In this document: piece after piece, positions 553-41,318 of the stretch
How the letters are laid out: the number at the start of each line of letters is the position of its first letter
Numbering within the stretch: position 1 is the first letter of the stretch
Source of the DNA: a virus
Reading direction: 5' to 3' (one strand)
DNA length: 42,850 nt
UHGV virus genome: UHGV-0182515
Translations under genes and position numbers: made by a program
The notes under the pieces: generated by a model
The model's input: only the letters and a program-made list of their open reading frames with translations
Told to the model about the DNA's origin: nothing
The model's database searches: none

Positions 553-991
553 ACGTAAACTTTTTCCGGTTGTTGTCGATAGCTCTATATCCCTCAACCG
601 GAAAATAATAATACCAAAATGCTTAGCCCTGCTAATAATCGCCTAATCCAAACGCCTCATTCATGTTCTGGTACAGTCGCTCAAATGTACTCCGGATACA
701 CGGCTCGCTGATTTCCAGGGCATTGTCGTAATTCAGCGACCTGTCCCGTGTATCACGGGCCTGCGAATTCATCAAGGAAAGCATTGTGGAGTGAAGTATC
801 AAGTCACGCCATATTTCGCGATCAGGATTGTGTGTGATGGTTACATCGCCCAGCCCAGGGCTGTTTAGTCATCAGCGTTTTCTGACCGTGTTGAGATTTC
901 AACCTGTTGCAGGAAAAATGAGTAGATAGGGCAAATGTGCTGCCAAACTTATCTTTTACGGGGTGAAGGTAGATATCGTTTGAAGGGTATC

Positions 992-1006
992 TGGTGTCCC
1001 CTGCAG
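992..1006. repeat. attR core candidate: 15-bp direct repeat tggtgtcccctgcag identical to the 3' terminal 15 nt of argW
   Basis: Exact 15-bp match to 41244-41258, read directly from the sequence. Lies 73 bp beyond the stop of the excisionase gene. Confidence 0.6.
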
Positions 1007-1079
1007 ACATCTACTTGACGCGGCAGGGGATTGATTAGAATGGTGTTTTTTAGATGTGAGAAATATTTTACCCGCTATT

Positions 1080-1280
1080 TTACCCATTGGCGCGGCTTAA
1101 GAGCTTATTTTTGAATTCACAATGGTCACGATATAACCATCTTGCTCGCCCGTGGATAACTTTGGCTTTTGGCAGGTCGCCGGACTTAATCCGGTCGTAG
1201 ATGAAGGTTTTACCAAAGCCAGTATCGGCCATGATGAATTTCAAATCAACCAGTGAATCAGGCTGTAGTTCGTGTTGCAT
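1080..1280 (-). CDS. torI: Excisionase / recombination directionality factor, TorI/AlpA-like (66 aa)
   Basis: 66-aa protein MQHELQPDSLVDLKFIMADTGFGKTFIYDRIKSGDLPKAKVIHGRARWLYRDHCEFKNKLLSRANG, recognised as TorI/AlpA family; sits at the prophage end opposite the integrase. Confidence 0.75.
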   Translation of the reverse strand: MQHELQPDSLVDLKFIMADTGFGKTFIYDRIKSGDLPKAKVIHGRARWLYRDHCEFKNKLLSRANG

Positions 1281-1299
1281 GAGTGCTATCTCCGAATAG

Positions 1300-1315
1300 G
1301 GAATCGAACCTGCAA
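1300..1315. repeat. Second argW-derived 16-bp segment ggaatcgaacctgcaa (T-arm region of the tRNA), internal to the prophage left arm
   Basis: Exact 16-bp match to 41257-41272, which is the part of argW immediately adjacent to the 15-bp core. Confidence 0.6.
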
Positions 1316-1322
1316 ATCAGGT

Positions 1323-1345
1323 AATAAAAAACCGCATTGATGCGG
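1323..1345 (-). terminator. Rho-independent terminator candidate (minus strand)
   Basis: Inverted repeat ccgca/tgcgg with a 4-nt loop; on the minus strand it is followed by a T-run (complement of aataaaaaa). Confidence 0.4.
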
Positions 1346-1404
1346 CGATGGTAGGTCTGGATATCTTGAGAAATGAACAGGCCTCATCGAGTGTGAGGCT
1401 GTGG

Positions 1405-39923: not shown

Positions 39924-41081
39924 TCACTCCACCTTCTCATCAATCCAGTCCGCCCACCACTGCATCATCTCCCTGCGCTTATCGAGATATTGCGCATGGT
40001 TGTAAATACCGCGCACAGATCCGCCGTTGGCATGTGCCAGTTGCACTTCAATAGCATCAGCAGGCCATTCGTGCTCGTTCATAATCGTGCTGAATTCATG
40101 CCTGAATCCGTGACCGCTTTCCAGCCCTTCATAGCCAATTTGTTTGATCACAAGCAATACCGCGTTCTCGCAGATTGGCTTCTTCTTATCGTTGCGCCCG
40201 GCAAAAACAAACTCTGACACTGGTTTAGTGATTGAGCTTAGCGTAGTGAGAAGTTCAATCACCTGGTCTGACATAGGAACCACATGAATTTTTCGCCCCT
40301 TCATCACACTGGCGTCGATGGTGATAATCCTGTTTTCAAAATCGACGTTCTTCCATTGCATGGAACGAAGCTCTTTCGTTCTTAGGGCTGTGTAGCGTAA
40401 AACTTTGGTCGCAATGAGCGATACGATGCTTCCTGAAAATGTTGCCAGTGCTTTGTTGAATGCAGGGATCTGGTCTGCTGGAAGAAACGGGAAGTTCTTC
40501 TTGCGGTATCCTTTCATGGCGTCTGCAAGGTCAGGTGCCGGGTTATATTTAGCCCTTCCGGTGACAATAGCGTAACGAAAAACCTCGCCGCATCTTCTGC
40601 GGGCTTTGTTGGCTCGCTCCATTGCACCGCGATCTTCAAATCTGCGGATTACTTCCAGCAGTTGCATCGGCTCAATATCCTGAATCTCAAGACCGCCGAT
40701 GATGGGTAAAATGTCGTCATCAAACATTTTGGCAAGTTCAGTTGCATAGCCTACTGACCAGACTTGCTTCTTGTGCTCGTACCATTCCTTGTAAATCGCA
40801 CTAAAGGAATTGTTGTTAGACGAAGCCTTTTTCGCTTTTACCGGATCGATGCCAACCGAGATGTCTTTCCTCGCAGTCCATGCTTTATCCCTTGCCTCCT
40901 GCAAAGTCATAAGCGGATATTTTCCTACGGTCAGGATTTTCTCCTTACCGTCAATCTTGTAGCGAAGCTGCCATACCTTTTTCCCTGACACAGGGACATA
41001 AAGGTACAGGCCATTACCATCGAGTAGGCGGTATGGTTTTTCTTTCGGCTTTGCTGCTTCAATCTGCTTAACGGTGAGCAT
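39924..41081 (-). CDS. intS: Tyrosine integrase, IntS/P4 family (ATG at 41081; an upstream GTG at 41117 is also in frame)
   Basis: C-terminal catalytic region ...HGFRHEFSTIMNE...LAHANGGSVRGIYNHAQY (catalytic Tyr) and N-terminus MLTVKQIEAAKPKEKPYRL..; adjacent to the tRNA. Confidence 0.9.
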   Translation of the reverse strand: MLTVKQIEAAKPKEKPYRLLDGNGLYLYVPVSGKKVWQLRYKIDGKEKILTVGKYPLMTLQEARDKAWTARKDISVGIDPVKAKKASSNNNSFSAIYKEWYEHKKQVWSVGYATELAKMFDDDILPIIGGLEIQDIEPMQLLEVIRRFEDRGAMERANKARRRCGEVFRYAIVTGRAKYNPAPDLADAMKGYRKKNFPFLPADQIPAFNKALATFSGSIVSLIATKVLRYTALRTKELRSMQWKNVDFENRIITIDASVMKGRKIHVVPMSDQVIELLTTLSSITKPVSEFVFAGRNDKKKPICENAVLLVIKQIGYEGLESGHGFRHEFSTIMNEHEWPADAIEVQLAHANGGSVRGIYNHAQYLDKRREMMQWWADWIDEKVE

Positions 41082-41243
41082 GGGTAAAAATCCGGTGGGT
41101 AAAATTATTTTATCCACTTTTTACCCGTCATGGAGTGCGGCTGTCAACGATCTGACGTGAACCATTACGAACTGTAAATCTACGGAAGGCTTGATATTCA
41201 GGGGATTTTGCGGACTGCTACGGATGGGAGCGAACTGATAAAT

Positions 41244-41258
41244 GGTGTCCCCTGCAGG
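41244..41258. repeat. attL core candidate (15 bp, identical to 992-1006), the 3' end of argW
   Basis: Exact direct repeat read from the sequence. Confidence 0.6.
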
Positions 41259-41318
41259 AATCGAACCTGCAATTAGCCCTTAGGAGGGGCTCGTTATATC
41301 CATTTAACTAAGAGGACA
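41244..41318 (-). tRNA. argW: tRNA-Arg (anticodon CCU)
   Basis: Reverse complement GTCCTCTTAGTTAAATGGATATAACGAGCCCCTCCTAAGGGCTAATTGCAGGTTCGATTCCTGCAGGGGACACCA folds as a cloverleaf with 7-bp acceptor stem, T-loop GGTTCGATTCC, anticodon loop CUCCUAA and CCA end. Confidence 0.85.

What the first reader, a model, noticed from the sequence alone, without database searches (positions are those of the whole stretch)
992..1315. The argW 3' segment is split at the prophage left end: 15-bp terminal piece and 16-bp T-arm piece separated by 293 bp that contain torI
At the right junction the tRNA sequence tggtgtcccctgcag|gaatcgaacctgcaa is contiguous (41244-41272). At the left end the first 15 bp occur at 992-1006 and the next 16 bp at 1300-1315 (both exact), with the excisionase gene (1080-1280) in between. 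A 16-bp exact match is not expected by chance in 43 kb. This suggests either a nested or secondary att core, an insertion of the torI module into an ancestral 31-bp identity block, or a remnant of sequential integrations at argW. Which repeat is the true crossover site determines whether torI lies inside the excisable element.
Basis: seen in the sequence. Interest (0 to 1): 0.6.

Follow-up and report, generated by a model that had tools for sequence, protein, structure and literature searches.

The report
tRNA T-arm copy upstream of torI
The 15-bp piece is the well-known attachment-site core of an HK620/KplE1-type prophage in the argW tRNA gene, and the 16-bp piece is a second, phage-carried copy of the tRNA's T-arm just in front of the excisionase gene: an apparently unremarked, conserved detail of an otherwise well-understood system.

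Summary
TGGTGTCCCCTGCAG occurs only at 992-1006 and 41243-41257. GGAATCGAACCTGCAA occurs only at 1300-1315 and 41257-41272. torI (1080-1280, minus strand) lies between the two left-hand copies.

The "which is the crossover" question is already answered. An empty argW site places the prophage at 1007-41242, bounded by the 15-bp core. This is the published KplE1/HK620/Sf6/Kapi1 att core. Published in-vitro excision uses a torI-side substrate that stops about 200 bp short of the 16-mer. HK620 and Sf6 phage genome records carry the same order: 16-mer, torI, core, int. So torI is inside the element and the 16-mer is phage DNA.

The "split block" reading is not supported. In relatives from other genera, the arm next to the core already holds an in-register T-loop (TTCGAT-GTA-TGCAGGGG), so the 16-mer is a second copy.

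What is new is modest. The block CAGGTTCGATTCC sits about 30 nt upstream of the excisionase start in 19 of 29 non-E. coli sequence contexts. It is sometimes tandemly doubled, and its flanks have diverged. No conserved RNA structure was found. I infer a protein-binding control element, with TorI (motif GTTCG) or IntS as the binder. This is untested. One rare in-register 294-bp deletion between the two pieces leaves a pseudo-att role possible.

The parts
992..1006 (-). att core copy at the torI end of the prophage. It is the displaced bacterial 3' end of argW, CTGCAGGGGACACCA in tRNA sense.
   Evidence: Exact repeat of 41243-41257. In the empty site of strain M1/5 the left flank runs straight into the tRNA at this 15-mer. 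It equals the published 16-nt KplE1 core minus the final T (PMC2951348).
1007..1079 (-). P arm of the attachment site, between the core and the torI stop. It holds two GGGTAAAAT repeats (IntS arm-type motif TAAA) at about 1064-1086. It also holds the inverted repeat CCCCTGC (998-1004) / GCAGGGG (1023-1029).
   Evidence: Read from the sequence. It is nearly identical in HK620 and Sf6. HK620 annotates an attP repeat at the homologous place. The TAAA motif of the arm-type sites is from PMC2951348, section 8.
1080..1280 (-). torI, the excisionase (recombination directionality factor), 66 aa.
   Evidence: ORF. It is 100% identical to TorI/HkaC of E. coli and HK620 loci and is annotated torI in the identical genome Combat2C1.
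1281..1299 (-). torI leader, with the Shine-Dalgarno GGAG at 1290-1293.
   Evidence: Read from the sequence. CGGAG is conserved across lineages.
1300..1315 (-). T' : a phage-borne 16-nt copy of the argW T-arm (TTGCAGGTTCGATTCC in tRNA sense). It ends 19 nt upstream of the torI ATG.
   Evidence: Exact repeat of 41257-41272. Present in HK620 (1677-1692) and Sf6. The core block GGTTCGATT(C/T)CC is conserved in 19 of 29 non-E. coli contexts.
1322..1346 (-). Intrinsic-terminator-like hairpin (1331-1346) plus T-run. It ends the upstream early-left gene block just before T'.
   Evidence: The same hairpin occurs in phage Gally, where a different xis-int module follows. This places the mosaic joint between the terminator and T'.
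39924..41081 (-). intS-type integrase, 385 aa.
   Evidence: 98% identical to HK620 Int. Pfam domains: Arm-DNA-bind_3, Phage_int_M and Phage_integrase.
41082..41242 (-). P' arm, overlapping the intS promoter. It has TorI-type motifs GTTCG (41231-41235), GTCCG, GTTCG and GATCG, the -35 hexamer TTGACA, and GGGTAAAA arm-type repeats.
   Evidence: Reconstructed attP compared with HK620 and other lineages. The motif definitions are from PMC2951348, section 8.
41243..41317 (-). argW, tRNA-Arg(CCT). Its last 15 nt (41243-41257) are the att core and its T-arm (41257-41272) is the source sequence of T'.
   Evidence: ARAGORN.

Best explanation
The window holds a P22-like (HK620 / CUS-3 / Kapi1-type) prophage at 1007-41242, integrated into the 3' end of argW by the known IntS/TorI recombination module.

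Shown:
- The 15-bp repeat is the att core where strand exchange occurs.
- torI and the 16-bp piece are inside the excisable element.
- In the circular phage the order, in tRNA sense, is terminator, T', SD-torI, P arm, core, P' arm with the intS promoter, then intS.
- T' is not the other half of a split attachment site. It is a second copy of the argW T-arm that belongs to the recombination module. It sits at a nearly fixed distance (about -30) from the excisionase start codon in many genera.
- T' is conserved as primary sequence while its flanks have diverged.

Inferred:
- T' is a selectively maintained cis element. I put this at about 0.7.
- Its most likely job is as a protein-binding operator in the excisionase leader. 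The binder could be TorI, whose published site motif is GTTCG. It could instead be the core-binding domain of IntS, for which T' reproduces the tRNA half-site lying immediately 5' of the identity block. Either would feed back on excisionase expression. I put this at about 0.3.
- T' is not needed for the excision chemistry itself.
For: Boundaries and crossover site:
- The empty site and the exact repeats fix the prophage ends at the 15-mer.
- The 16-nt core and the excision of KplE1 are published (PMC2951348).
- Kapi1 has the same att, with attP lying between int and xis (PMC8787464).
- The in-vitro excision substrate on the torI side ends at primer attR-IHF2, which maps to window 1084-1103 (PMC3509656). 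That is about 200 bp short of T'.

T' is phage DNA:
- HK620 and Sf6 phage genome records carry T', hkaC/torI, core and int contiguously.
- Int is 98% identical to HK620 Int.

T' is a second copy rather than the missing half:
- In most non-E. coli attPs the arm abutting the core reads (G/A)TTCGAT-GTA-TGCAGGGGACACCA. The tRNA reads GTTCGAT-TCC-TGCAGGGGACACCA in the same register.

Conservation:
- GGTTCGATTCC (2 or fewer mismatches) lies at -27 to -36 in 19 of 29 distinct non-E. coli upstream contexts.
- Four Erwinia-type loci have the block twice, about 16 nt apart (two read directly as tandem repeats), and L123 twice 13 nt apart.
- In the 13-lineage alignment, T' is the only conserved block apart from the SD and the ATG.
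- Different lineages keep different edges of the tRNA match: E. coli keeps TTG on the 5' side and Serratia keeps TG on the 3' side. This points to an ancestral longer T-arm copy.
- 52 of 55 E. coli loci keep the exact 16-mer. T' is polymorphic at 2 of 16 sites, against 19 of 66 third-codon sites in torI.

Primary sequence rather than RNA structure:
- RNAalifold finds no consensus pairs.
- The single-sequence fold has z = -0.86.
- There is no relevant Rfam hit.

TorI motif:
- GTTCG, GATCG and GTCCG are the published site motifs (PMC2951348, section 8).
- GTTCGC repeats fill the P' arm in all lineages where the phage arm is seen.
- T' contains GTTCGA. Four of the aligned lineages have a second GTYCG 12 nt downstream, overlapping the SD.

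Module membership:
- Phage Gally shares the upstream terminator but has another xis-int module and no T'.
Against: - No binding or expression data exist for T'. The two papers that mapped the sites (Panis 2007 in J Biol Chem and Panis 2010 in Virology) could not be read here.
- T' is missing in 10 of 29 non-E. coli contexts. L014 looks like a recent loss of about 26 bp, so T' is dispensable.
- Some E. coli prophages carry single-base changes inside T'.
- The TorI sites in the P' arm read GTTCGC, whereas T' reads GTTCGA.
- The tRNA's own T-loop has the same 16 nt, yet the open papers count only five TorI sites at the tRNA-int junction (their attL), described as lying between the core and the intS -35.
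- The within-E. coli polymorphism difference is not statistically significant.
- The HK620 and Sf6 records offer another reading, a predicted promoter.
Confidence: 0.55

Rival explanations
1. T' is a functionless scar. On this view a piece of the argW T-arm was captured or duplicated once in an ancestor of the module, by illegitimate recombination or by duplication of the att region. It has simply not yet decayed.
For: It has been lost repeatedly (10 of 29 contexts; a 26-bp indel in L014). Point variants occur in E. coli prophages. The polymorphism contrast is not significant. Excision in vitro does not need it (PMC3509656).
Against: Sequence on both sides of T' has diverged beyond alignment between genera, while 9-11 positions of T' stay invariant or nearly so. 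Its distance to the ATG is held at -27 to -30 in most lineages. Doubled copies are retained in five contexts.
Confidence: 0.2
2. T' is part of a cII/C1-dependent 'integration' promoter (pI), as predicted in the HK620 and Sf6 records. On this view transcripts start within the torI ribosome-binding site and read across attP into int, giving integrase without excisionase. The first four bases of T' (TTGC) are one activator half-site and the rest is the spacer.
For: HK620 annotates a promoter at 1664-1702 and a cII site TTGCCTGATTTGC over T'. Sf6 annotates pI there too. Phage Gally has a canonical TTGC-N6-TTGC box at the same position after the same terminator. This parallels lambda pI lying inside xis (textbook knowledge).
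Against: The HK620 box has a 5-nt spacing, not 6, and in this window the first half-site is TTAC. The promoter scan finds no sigma-70-like site at 950-1900. Lineages such as Edwardsiella, Serratia and Erwinia conserve CAGGTTCGATTCC without any TTGC repeats. A promoter spacer is not expected to be sequence-conserved. The annotation is a prediction, not an experiment.
Confidence: 0.12
3. T' plus the 14 nt that follow it form a cryptic attB-like secondary site. On this view IntS binds T' as it binds the tRNA half-site and can, rarely, recombine the pseudo-site with the true core 294 bp away. This deletes torI and locks the prophage in place.
For: E. coli F404 carries exactly such a product: flank-ATGGTGTCC|GAATAGGGAATCGAACCTGCAA. 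It is a 294-bp deletion that restores the precise tRNA register of the two pieces. The switch point lies inside GGA, about where an overlap region at the start of the identity block would end. The same junction occurs next to a second, tandem integrase element in L138 and L140, and a 1-nt variant occurs in L139.
Against: Only 1 of 5,426 complete E. coli genomes has it. The shared junction could be one inherited event. A 3-nt microhomology (TCC at 997-999 and 1291-1293) is enough for replication slippage. By my rough estimate, an in-register outcome has a chance probability of a few percent. The putative overlap regions share only 1-3 of 7 bases, which normally blocks tyrosine recombinases. The 14 nt after T' show no significant similarity to the core.
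Confidence: 0.08
4. One reading: an ancestral attP had about 31 bp of contiguous identity to argW, and the torI cassette was inserted into it, splitting it into the two pieces.
For: The two pieces abut exactly in the tRNA and have the same orientation. The F404 deletion shows that the two can be rejoined in register.
Against: The arm directly next to the core is itself T-loop-like and in register in most relatives (TTCGAT-GTA-TGCAGGGG), so nothing is missing there. An insertion would need to carry CTGCAGG at its end by coincidence. The torI-less form is very rare (one of 5,426 complete E. coli genomes) and lacks part of the core, so it is the derived state.
Confidence: 0.03
5. T' acts in RNA as a tRNA T-arm mimic in the torI 5' leader, recognised by a tRNA-binding factor or by a processing enzyme.
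For: T' would be transcribed by any read-through of the upstream terminator. In the Edwardsiella lineage it forms a full hairpin, ACAGG-TTCGATTC-CCTGT. The stem is kept in L114 although the loop changed.
Against: There is no consensus structure across 13 lineages. In E. coli the 3' stem half is absent. There is no Rfam or ARAGORN hit.
Confidence: 0.02

Closest known systems
KplE1 (CPS-53) / HK620 / Sf6 / CUS-3 / Kapi1 recombination module at argW (IntS integrase, TorI/HkaC excisionase, 16-17-bp core)
   Same: The integrase is 98% identical to HK620 Int and the excisionase is 100% identical. The core, both arms, the gene order (excisionase, attP, integrase) and the target tRNA are the same (PMC2951348, PMC3509656, PMC8787464). 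K-12-type loci carry the identical T' (L007 and L010).
   Different: The module itself shows no material difference. Here the core identity is 15 rather than 16 nt, because the csc-side bacterial flank has C at 991 where the phage has A. The rest of the prophage is a different P22-like mosaic, with CUS-3 and Kapi1 the closest phages at 52-54% coverage.
Displaced tRNA 3' fragments at the distal end of tRNA-integrated elements (for example pawZ in K-12; recalled from memory)
   Same: The 15-mer at 992-1006 is exactly this kind of fragment.
   Different: T' is not at a junction. It lies 293 bp inside the element, is carried in the phage genome, and covers the part of the tRNA that lies outside the attP/attB identity block.
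TorI operator sites I1-I5 in the integrase-side arm (PMC2951348)
   Same: They share the pentamer GTTCG. Both lie next to the start of a recombination gene. The sites occur as repeats, as T' does in Erwinia-type phages.
   Different: The arm sites read GTTCGC with 10- or 20-nt spacing. T' reads GTTCGATTCC, and its conservation extends 8 nt beyond the pentamer. Binding of TorI to T' has not been tested.
Lambda/P22 pI-type cII-dependent promoter in front of or inside xis
   Same: The position is the same, directly after the early-left terminator and before the excisionase. HK620 and Sf6 annotate it so, and Gally has a canonical box there.
   Different: The box spacing is N5 and one half-site is mutated in this window. 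The conserved part in other genera is not the TTGC repeat.
Secondary attachment sites of lambda Int (textbook knowledge)
   Same: There is a sequence resembling one core-type half-site followed by a poorly matching overlap region, and a rare recombinant with its junction inside the presumed overlap.
   Different: Here the candidate site is inside the phage itself, in direct repeat with the real core. Use of it by the integrase is not shown.

Membership tests
KplE1/HK620-type argW recombination module | Tyrosine integrase of the IntS type next to argW, in the same orientation as the tRNA | tested here: met
   ORF 39924-41081 (minus strand) is 98% identical to HK620 Int. Pfam finds an arm-binding domain plus a catalytic domain. 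The tRNA is at 41243-41317 on the minus strand.
KplE1/HK620-type argW recombination module | TorI/HkaC excisionase at the opposite prophage end, reading toward the att core | tested here: met
   ORF 1080-1280 (minus strand) is 100% identical to TorI of E. coli and HK620 loci.
KplE1/HK620-type argW recombination module | Direct repeat of the core CTGCAGGGGACACCA(T) bounding the element, with one copy being the tRNA 3' end | tested here: met
   Identity is 15 of the 16 published nt.
KplE1/HK620-type argW recombination module | TorI sites (GTTCG / GTCCG / GATCG) and IntS arm-type sites (TAAA motif) in the arms | tested here: met
   The motifs are present at homologous positions in the reconstructed attP and the P arm. 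Motif definitions are from PMC2951348.
KplE1/HK620-type argW recombination module | Excision and integration activity | not testable with these tools
   Inferred from near-identity to experimentally studied KplE1 and HK620.
tRNA gene or tRNA pseudogene (for T') | Cloverleaf, or at least a complete T-arm hairpin | tested here: not met
   ARAGORN finds only argW. Rfam has no hit in 900-1500. The 3' stem half is missing in E. coli.
cII/C1-dependent promoter (for T') | TTGC-N6-TTGC activator box flanking a weak -35 | tested here: not met
   HK620 has TTGC-N5-TTGC. This window has TTAC-N5-TTGC. A canonical N6 box is seen in Gally instead.
cII/C1-dependent promoter (for T') | Transcription start dependent on the activator | not testable with these tools
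   Only a database prediction exists.
TorI operator (for T') | Contains the pentamer GTTCG/GATCG/GTCCG | tested here: met
   GTTCG lies inside T'. The motif is defined in PMC2951348, section 8.
TorI operator (for T') | Specific TorI binding | not testable with these tools
   Needs EMSA or footprinting.
Secondary att site (for T' plus the next 14 nt) | Core-type half-site resembling that of attB | tested here: met
   16 of 16 identity with the tRNA sequence immediately 5' of the identity block.
Secondary att site (for T' plus the next 14 nt) | Homology in the overlap region with the true core | tested here: not met
   The in-register comparison gives 4 of 14 matches. Local alignment is no better than with shuffled cores.
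Secondary att site (for T' plus the next 14 nt) | Recombinants between the site and the true core | tested here: inconclusive
   One in-register 294-bp deletion in F404, and the same junction in L138 and L140. Slippage at a 3-nt microhomology is not excluded.

The most novel reading that the evidence does not exclude
The phage keeps a copy of its own target's T-arm, the tRNA half-site next to the crossover region, in the leader of its excisionase gene as a working 'attB mimic'. On this reading the recombination proteins (IntS, TorI or both) bind it to set excisionase expression. As a side effect, it can serve as a cryptic internal att site, and rare recombination with the true core deletes the excisionase and strands the prophage. 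That would be a built-in route to domestication.
Probability: 0.2. Interest if true: 0.55.

Novelty: already known. Interest (0 to 1): 0.3.

Why it matters
The practical question has a settled answer: the excisionase lies inside the mobile element, and recombination happens in the 15-bp core. This prophage end is therefore an ordinary member of a well-studied module.

The part worth a specialist's attention is small. A 13-16-nt copy of the target tRNA's T-arm sits at a fixed place in front of the excisionase gene. It is the same 16-mer in E. coli K-12-type prophage loci, HK620 and Sf6, and is conserved into Erwinia, Serratia, Pantoea, Citrobacter and Edwardsiella.

In this system excision is thought to depend mainly on how much excisionase is made (PMC2951348). 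An unrecognised control site in its leader would be directly testable with reagents that already exist: purified TorI and IntS, and gfp fusions. It would also add a piece to how these prophages stay silent.

If the element is only a scar, it is still a useful marker of the boundary of the recombination module in mosaic phage genomes.

Tried and rejected
1. A decayed second core after T' (the model T-C1-torI-C2). Local alignment of the 19-28 nt between T' and the ATG against TGCAGGGGACACCA in 12 lineages scored no better than shuffled cores (p >= 0.35 in every case). Rejected for lack of support.

2. A conserved RNA structure in the leader. RNAalifold on 13 lineages gave zero pairs. The E. coli leader folds no better than shuffles (z = -0.86). 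Rfam gave nothing relevant.

3. Co-variation of T' with the target tRNA.
- The Proteus tRNA-Arg(CCT) has an ACAGG/CCTGT T-stem, like the Edwardsiella-lineage T'.
- Erwinia-type integrases sit next to a GCAGG tRNA while their T' copies read ACAGG or TCAGG.
- The test is inconclusive. tRNA genes were absent from nearly all torI-side loci.

4. Further copies of the motif elsewhere in the prophage. None were found: AGGTTCGATTCCC with 2 or fewer mismatches occurs only at T' and in the tRNA. GTTCGC is at chance frequency window-wide.

5. A longer or degenerate tRNA remnant at the left end. The 25-mer spanning both pieces, with 3 or fewer mismatches, occurs only in the tRNA.

6. Population constraint within E. 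coli. T' has fewer polymorphic sites than synonymous positions (2 of 16 against 19 of 66), but the numbers are too small to be significant.

7. Literature. Panis 2007 (J Biol Chem), Panis 2010 (Virology) and Menouni 2013 (PNAS) are not held. Whether footprints ever covered T' therefore could not be checked. A search for 'pawZ' gave nothing relevant.

8. The LF82/Gally transcript data (PMC9928086) at first looked relevant to termination before xis. Gally, however, carries a different xis-int module. I use it only to place the mosaic joint.
Full report
**1. The observation**

Both matches are exact, and each has only two copies in the window:
- TGGTGTCCCCTGCAG at 992-1006 and 41243-41257.
- GGAATCGAACCTGCAA at 1300-1315 and 41257-41272.

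Neither pattern appeared in 100 shuffles, even with one mismatch allowed.

ARAGORN finds one tRNA-Arg(CCT) at 41243-41317 on the minus strand. In tRNA sense the 15-mer is CTGCAGGGGACACCA, which is the end of the T-stem, the acceptor strand and ACCA. The 16-mer is TTGCAGGTTCGATTCC, which is the 5' T-stem, the T-loop and two stem bases.

The two pieces share one base, so together they cover 30 contiguous tRNA nucleotides. The block starts at 41243, not 41244. torI is the 66-aa ORF at 1080-1280 on the minus strand.

**2. What the locus is**

- Left flank: the end of a sucrose-type MFS permease, then a DUF4942 gene fragment.
- Right flank: argW, yfdC and mlaA (annotation).
- Closest genome: the window is 100% identical over the tested stretch to E. 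coli Combat2C1.

Strain M1/5 has the same left flank running directly into argW. The left junction diverges immediately after ...CTGCAG (1006) and the right junction immediately before TGGTG... (41243). So the insert is 1007-41242 plus one copy of the 15-mer.

The insert is a P22-like mosaic. Its closest phages are CUS-3, vB_EcoP-720R6 and Kapi1. Its integrase (39924-41081, minus strand) is 98% identical to HK620 Int. Its excisionase is 100% identical to TorI/HkaC.

**3. Which repeat is the crossover, and is torI inside?**

This is established knowledge.
- KplE1 is bordered by a duplicated 16-nt core, CTGCAGGGGACACCAT, and excises in vivo (PMC2951348).
- Kapi1 has the same att (17 bp). Its attP lies between int and xis, so the two genes end up at opposite prophage ends (PMC8787464).
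- In-vitro excision uses a 135-bp torI-side substrate whose inner primer is attR-IHF2 (PMC3509656). That primer maps to window 1084-1103, about 200 bp short of the 16-mer.
- The HK620 and Sf6 phage genome records contain the contiguous series 16-mer, hkaC/torI, core, int. In HK620 the 16-mer is at 1677-1692 and the core at 1368-1383. The Sf6 arrangement is equivalent.

So the 15-mer is the crossover core, torI is inside the element, and the 16-mer (T' from here on) is phage DNA lying 293 bp from the core in attP. It is not an assembly artefact. The identical arrangement is seen in dozens of independent genomes.

**4. Is T' the other half of a split tRNA block?**

No. In most relatives outside E. 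coli, the arm that abuts the core reads (G/A)TTCGAT-GTA-TGCAGGGGACACCA. The tRNA reads GTTCGAT-TCC-TGCAGGGGACACCA, which is a T-loop in the same register. E. coli has the more decayed form GTAGATGTC.

The core-adjacent position therefore already holds the T-loop equivalent. This may be a relic of a longer identity block, or it may be the integrase's core-type half-site. Either way, T' is an additional copy.

I also tested the opposite idea, that a decayed second core follows T'. It found no support.

**5. T' is conserved well beyond E. coli**

I collected excisionase homologues from one genome per species and from viral contigs.
- GGTTCGATTCC (2 or fewer mismatches) lies at -27 to -36 from the excisionase ATG in 19 of 29 distinct non-E. 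coli upstream contexts. These include Serratia, Citrobacter, Pantoea, Edwardsiella and Erwinia phage Midgardsormr38.
- Four Erwinia-type loci have the block twice, about 16 nt apart (two read directly as tandem repeats), and L123 twice 13 nt apart.
- In a 13-lineage alignment, T' is the only conserved block apart from CGGAG and the ATG. Everything around it has diverged.
- Different lineages retain different edges of the tRNA match: E. coli TTG-CAGGTTCGATTCC, Serratia CAGGTTCGATTCC-TG. This suggests an ancestral copy of at least 18 nt.
- T' has been lost several times. L014 differs from its close relatives by an indel of about 26 bp flanked by CTGG.
- Within E. coli, 52 of 55 loci keep the exact 16-mer.

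**6. What T' belongs to**

Phages Gally and 720R6 share the window's early-left region only from about 1327 onward. Gally has the same terminator hairpin, followed by a canonical TTGC-N6-TTGC box and a P22-type xis-int pair, with no T'.

The mosaic joint therefore lies between the terminator (1331-1346) and T'. T' travels with the torI-att-int module.

**7. How T' might work**

*RNA structure is unlikely.* There are no consensus pairs, the single-sequence fold is unremarkable and there is no Rfam hit. Only the Edwardsiella lineage keeps a full hairpin.

*The promoter reading is doubtful.* The HK620 and Sf6 records predict a cII-dependent integration promoter over T'. Against this:
- The box is N5 rather than N6.
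- One half-site is mutated in this window.
- No sigma-70-like site is found.
- Lineages without any TTGC repeat still conserve the block.

*A protein-binding site remains the best reading.* Two candidates are already part of the system.
- TorI. Its published site motif is GTTCG/GATCG/GTCCG (PMC2951348, section 8). GTTCGC repeats fill the integrase-side arm wherever the phage arm is visible. T' contains GTTCGA, and four of the aligned lineages add a second GTYCG 12 nt downstream, over the ribosome-binding site.
- IntS. Suppose, as is usual for tRNA-targeting integrases, the overlap region sits at the start of the identity block. This is my inference, supported by the imperfect inverted repeat GATGTC-TGCAGGG-GACACC in attP. 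T' would then equal the tRNA half-site that the catalytic domain contacts.

Both proteins are known to repress the integrase promoter by binding within the att arm (PMC2951348). Feedback on the excisionase leader would be the same logic applied to the other gene.

This step is inference only. I rate "T' is a maintained cis element" at about 0.7 and "it is an operator for TorI or IntS" at about 0.3.

**8. A lead noticed on the way**

E. coli F404 has a torI-less left end: dsdC flank-ATGGTGTCC|GAATAGGGAATCGAACCTGCAA.... In window terms this is a deletion of 1000-1293 (294 bp) at a TCC microhomology (997-999 and 1291-1293). It puts the two tRNA-like pieces back into the exact tRNA register, with six non-tRNA bases between them.

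- It is unique among 5,426 complete E. coli genomes.
- The same junction occurs beside a second, tandem P4-type integrase element in one viral and one metagenome contig. A 1-nt variant occurs in a low-coverage contig.
- One inherited slippage event explains this.
- An IntS-mediated exchange between T' used as a pseudo-half-site and the true core would give the same product.

I leave this unresolved and list the experiment that would decide it.

**9. Comparison with what is known, and verdict**

Every sequence-level defining feature I could test is met. Excision and integration activity could not be tested here (see the membership table).

T' fails the tests for a tRNA or pseudo-tRNA and for a canonical cII box. 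It meets only the trivial sequence criteria for a TorI site and for an attB-like half-site.

I found no mention of the T-arm identity in the papers I could read or in the HK620 and Sf6 feature tables.

I rate the finding as already known for the system. It carries one small, apparently unremarked and testable detail. Interest is 0.3.

Noticed in passing
L136 2496-2525 (E. coli F404, NZ_OY754364); window equivalents 992-999 joined to 1294-1315: A natural 294-bp deletion removes torI, the P arm and half of the core. It rejoins the two tRNA-like pieces in exact tRNA register (TGGTGTCC-GAATAG-GGAATCGAACCTGCAA), at a TCC microhomology. It is unique among 5,426 complete E. coli genomes.
   Followed up: partly
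L138 3161-4562; L140 7357-7392; L139 3669-3705: The same deletion junction lies directly beside a second, tandem element with its own P4-type integrase (405 aa, L138 3161-4378, minus strand). L139, a low-coverage metagenome contig, has a variant that is 1 nt longer. It is unclear whether this is one inherited event or a recurrent one.
   Followed up: partly
L004 about 2290-2335 (Erwinia phage Midgardsormr38); also L126, L127, L130, L123: The T-arm-like block is tandemly duplicated upstream of the excisionase gene: CAGGTTCGATTCCCGT-CAGGTTCGATTCCCA. L123 has a 13-nt period instead.
   Followed up: partly
L014 about 2470-2500 (Dryocola sp.), compared with L011 and L013: L014 has the same terminator and a near-identical excisionase but lacks the block. 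The difference looks like a 26-bp indel flanked by CTGG direct repeats.
   Followed up: no
window 998-1004 and 1023-1029: A perfect inverted repeat, CCCCTGC / GCAGGGG, with an 18-nt spacer. One arm lies inside the att core. The pair is kept in nearly all lineages examined. Its role is unknown.
   Followed up: no
attP arms of non-E. coli lineages (for example L012, L013, L015, L004); window equivalent 1007-1016: The arm abutting the core reads TTCGAT-GTA-TGCAGGGG, an in-register T-loop. E. coli phages have the more decayed GTAGATGTC.
   Followed up: yes
window 632-802 (minus strand): A 56-aa fragment of a DUF4942 protein sits in the bacterial flank between the sucrose permease gene and the att core. 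Empty argW sites carry a hypothetical ORF, or in other strains an annotated DUF4942 gene, at the same place. It is probably a relic of an older island at this hotspot.
   Followed up: partly
window 41257-41277 and 1300-1315: The published primer attL-KpnI (GCTAATTGCAGGTTCGATTCC, PMC3509656) lies on the tRNA T-arm. Its 3' 16 nt are identical to T', so it has a second perfect 3' annealing site near torI.
   Followed up: no
L023 3960-4067 (Proteus hauseri): This tRNA-Arg(CCT) has an ACAGG/CCTGT T-stem and no encoded CCA. It is followed by CAGTTCGCCTCAGTTCGC (TorI-type repeats). The excisionase homologue there lies on the opposite strand from the tRNA, a different layout of the module.
   Followed up: no
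L221 2150-2200 (phage Gally): A canonical TTGC-N6-TTGC activator box sits immediately after the same terminator as in the window and in front of a P22-type xis. It marks the mosaic joint with the torI-type module.
   Followed up: partly
window 1372-1381 (minus strand): CTGTTCATTT follows a hairpin and matches the TorR 'tor box' consensus CTGTTCATAT (recalled from memory) at 9 of 10 positions. By my arithmetic a match this good is expected about 2-3 times in the window by chance.
   Followed up: no
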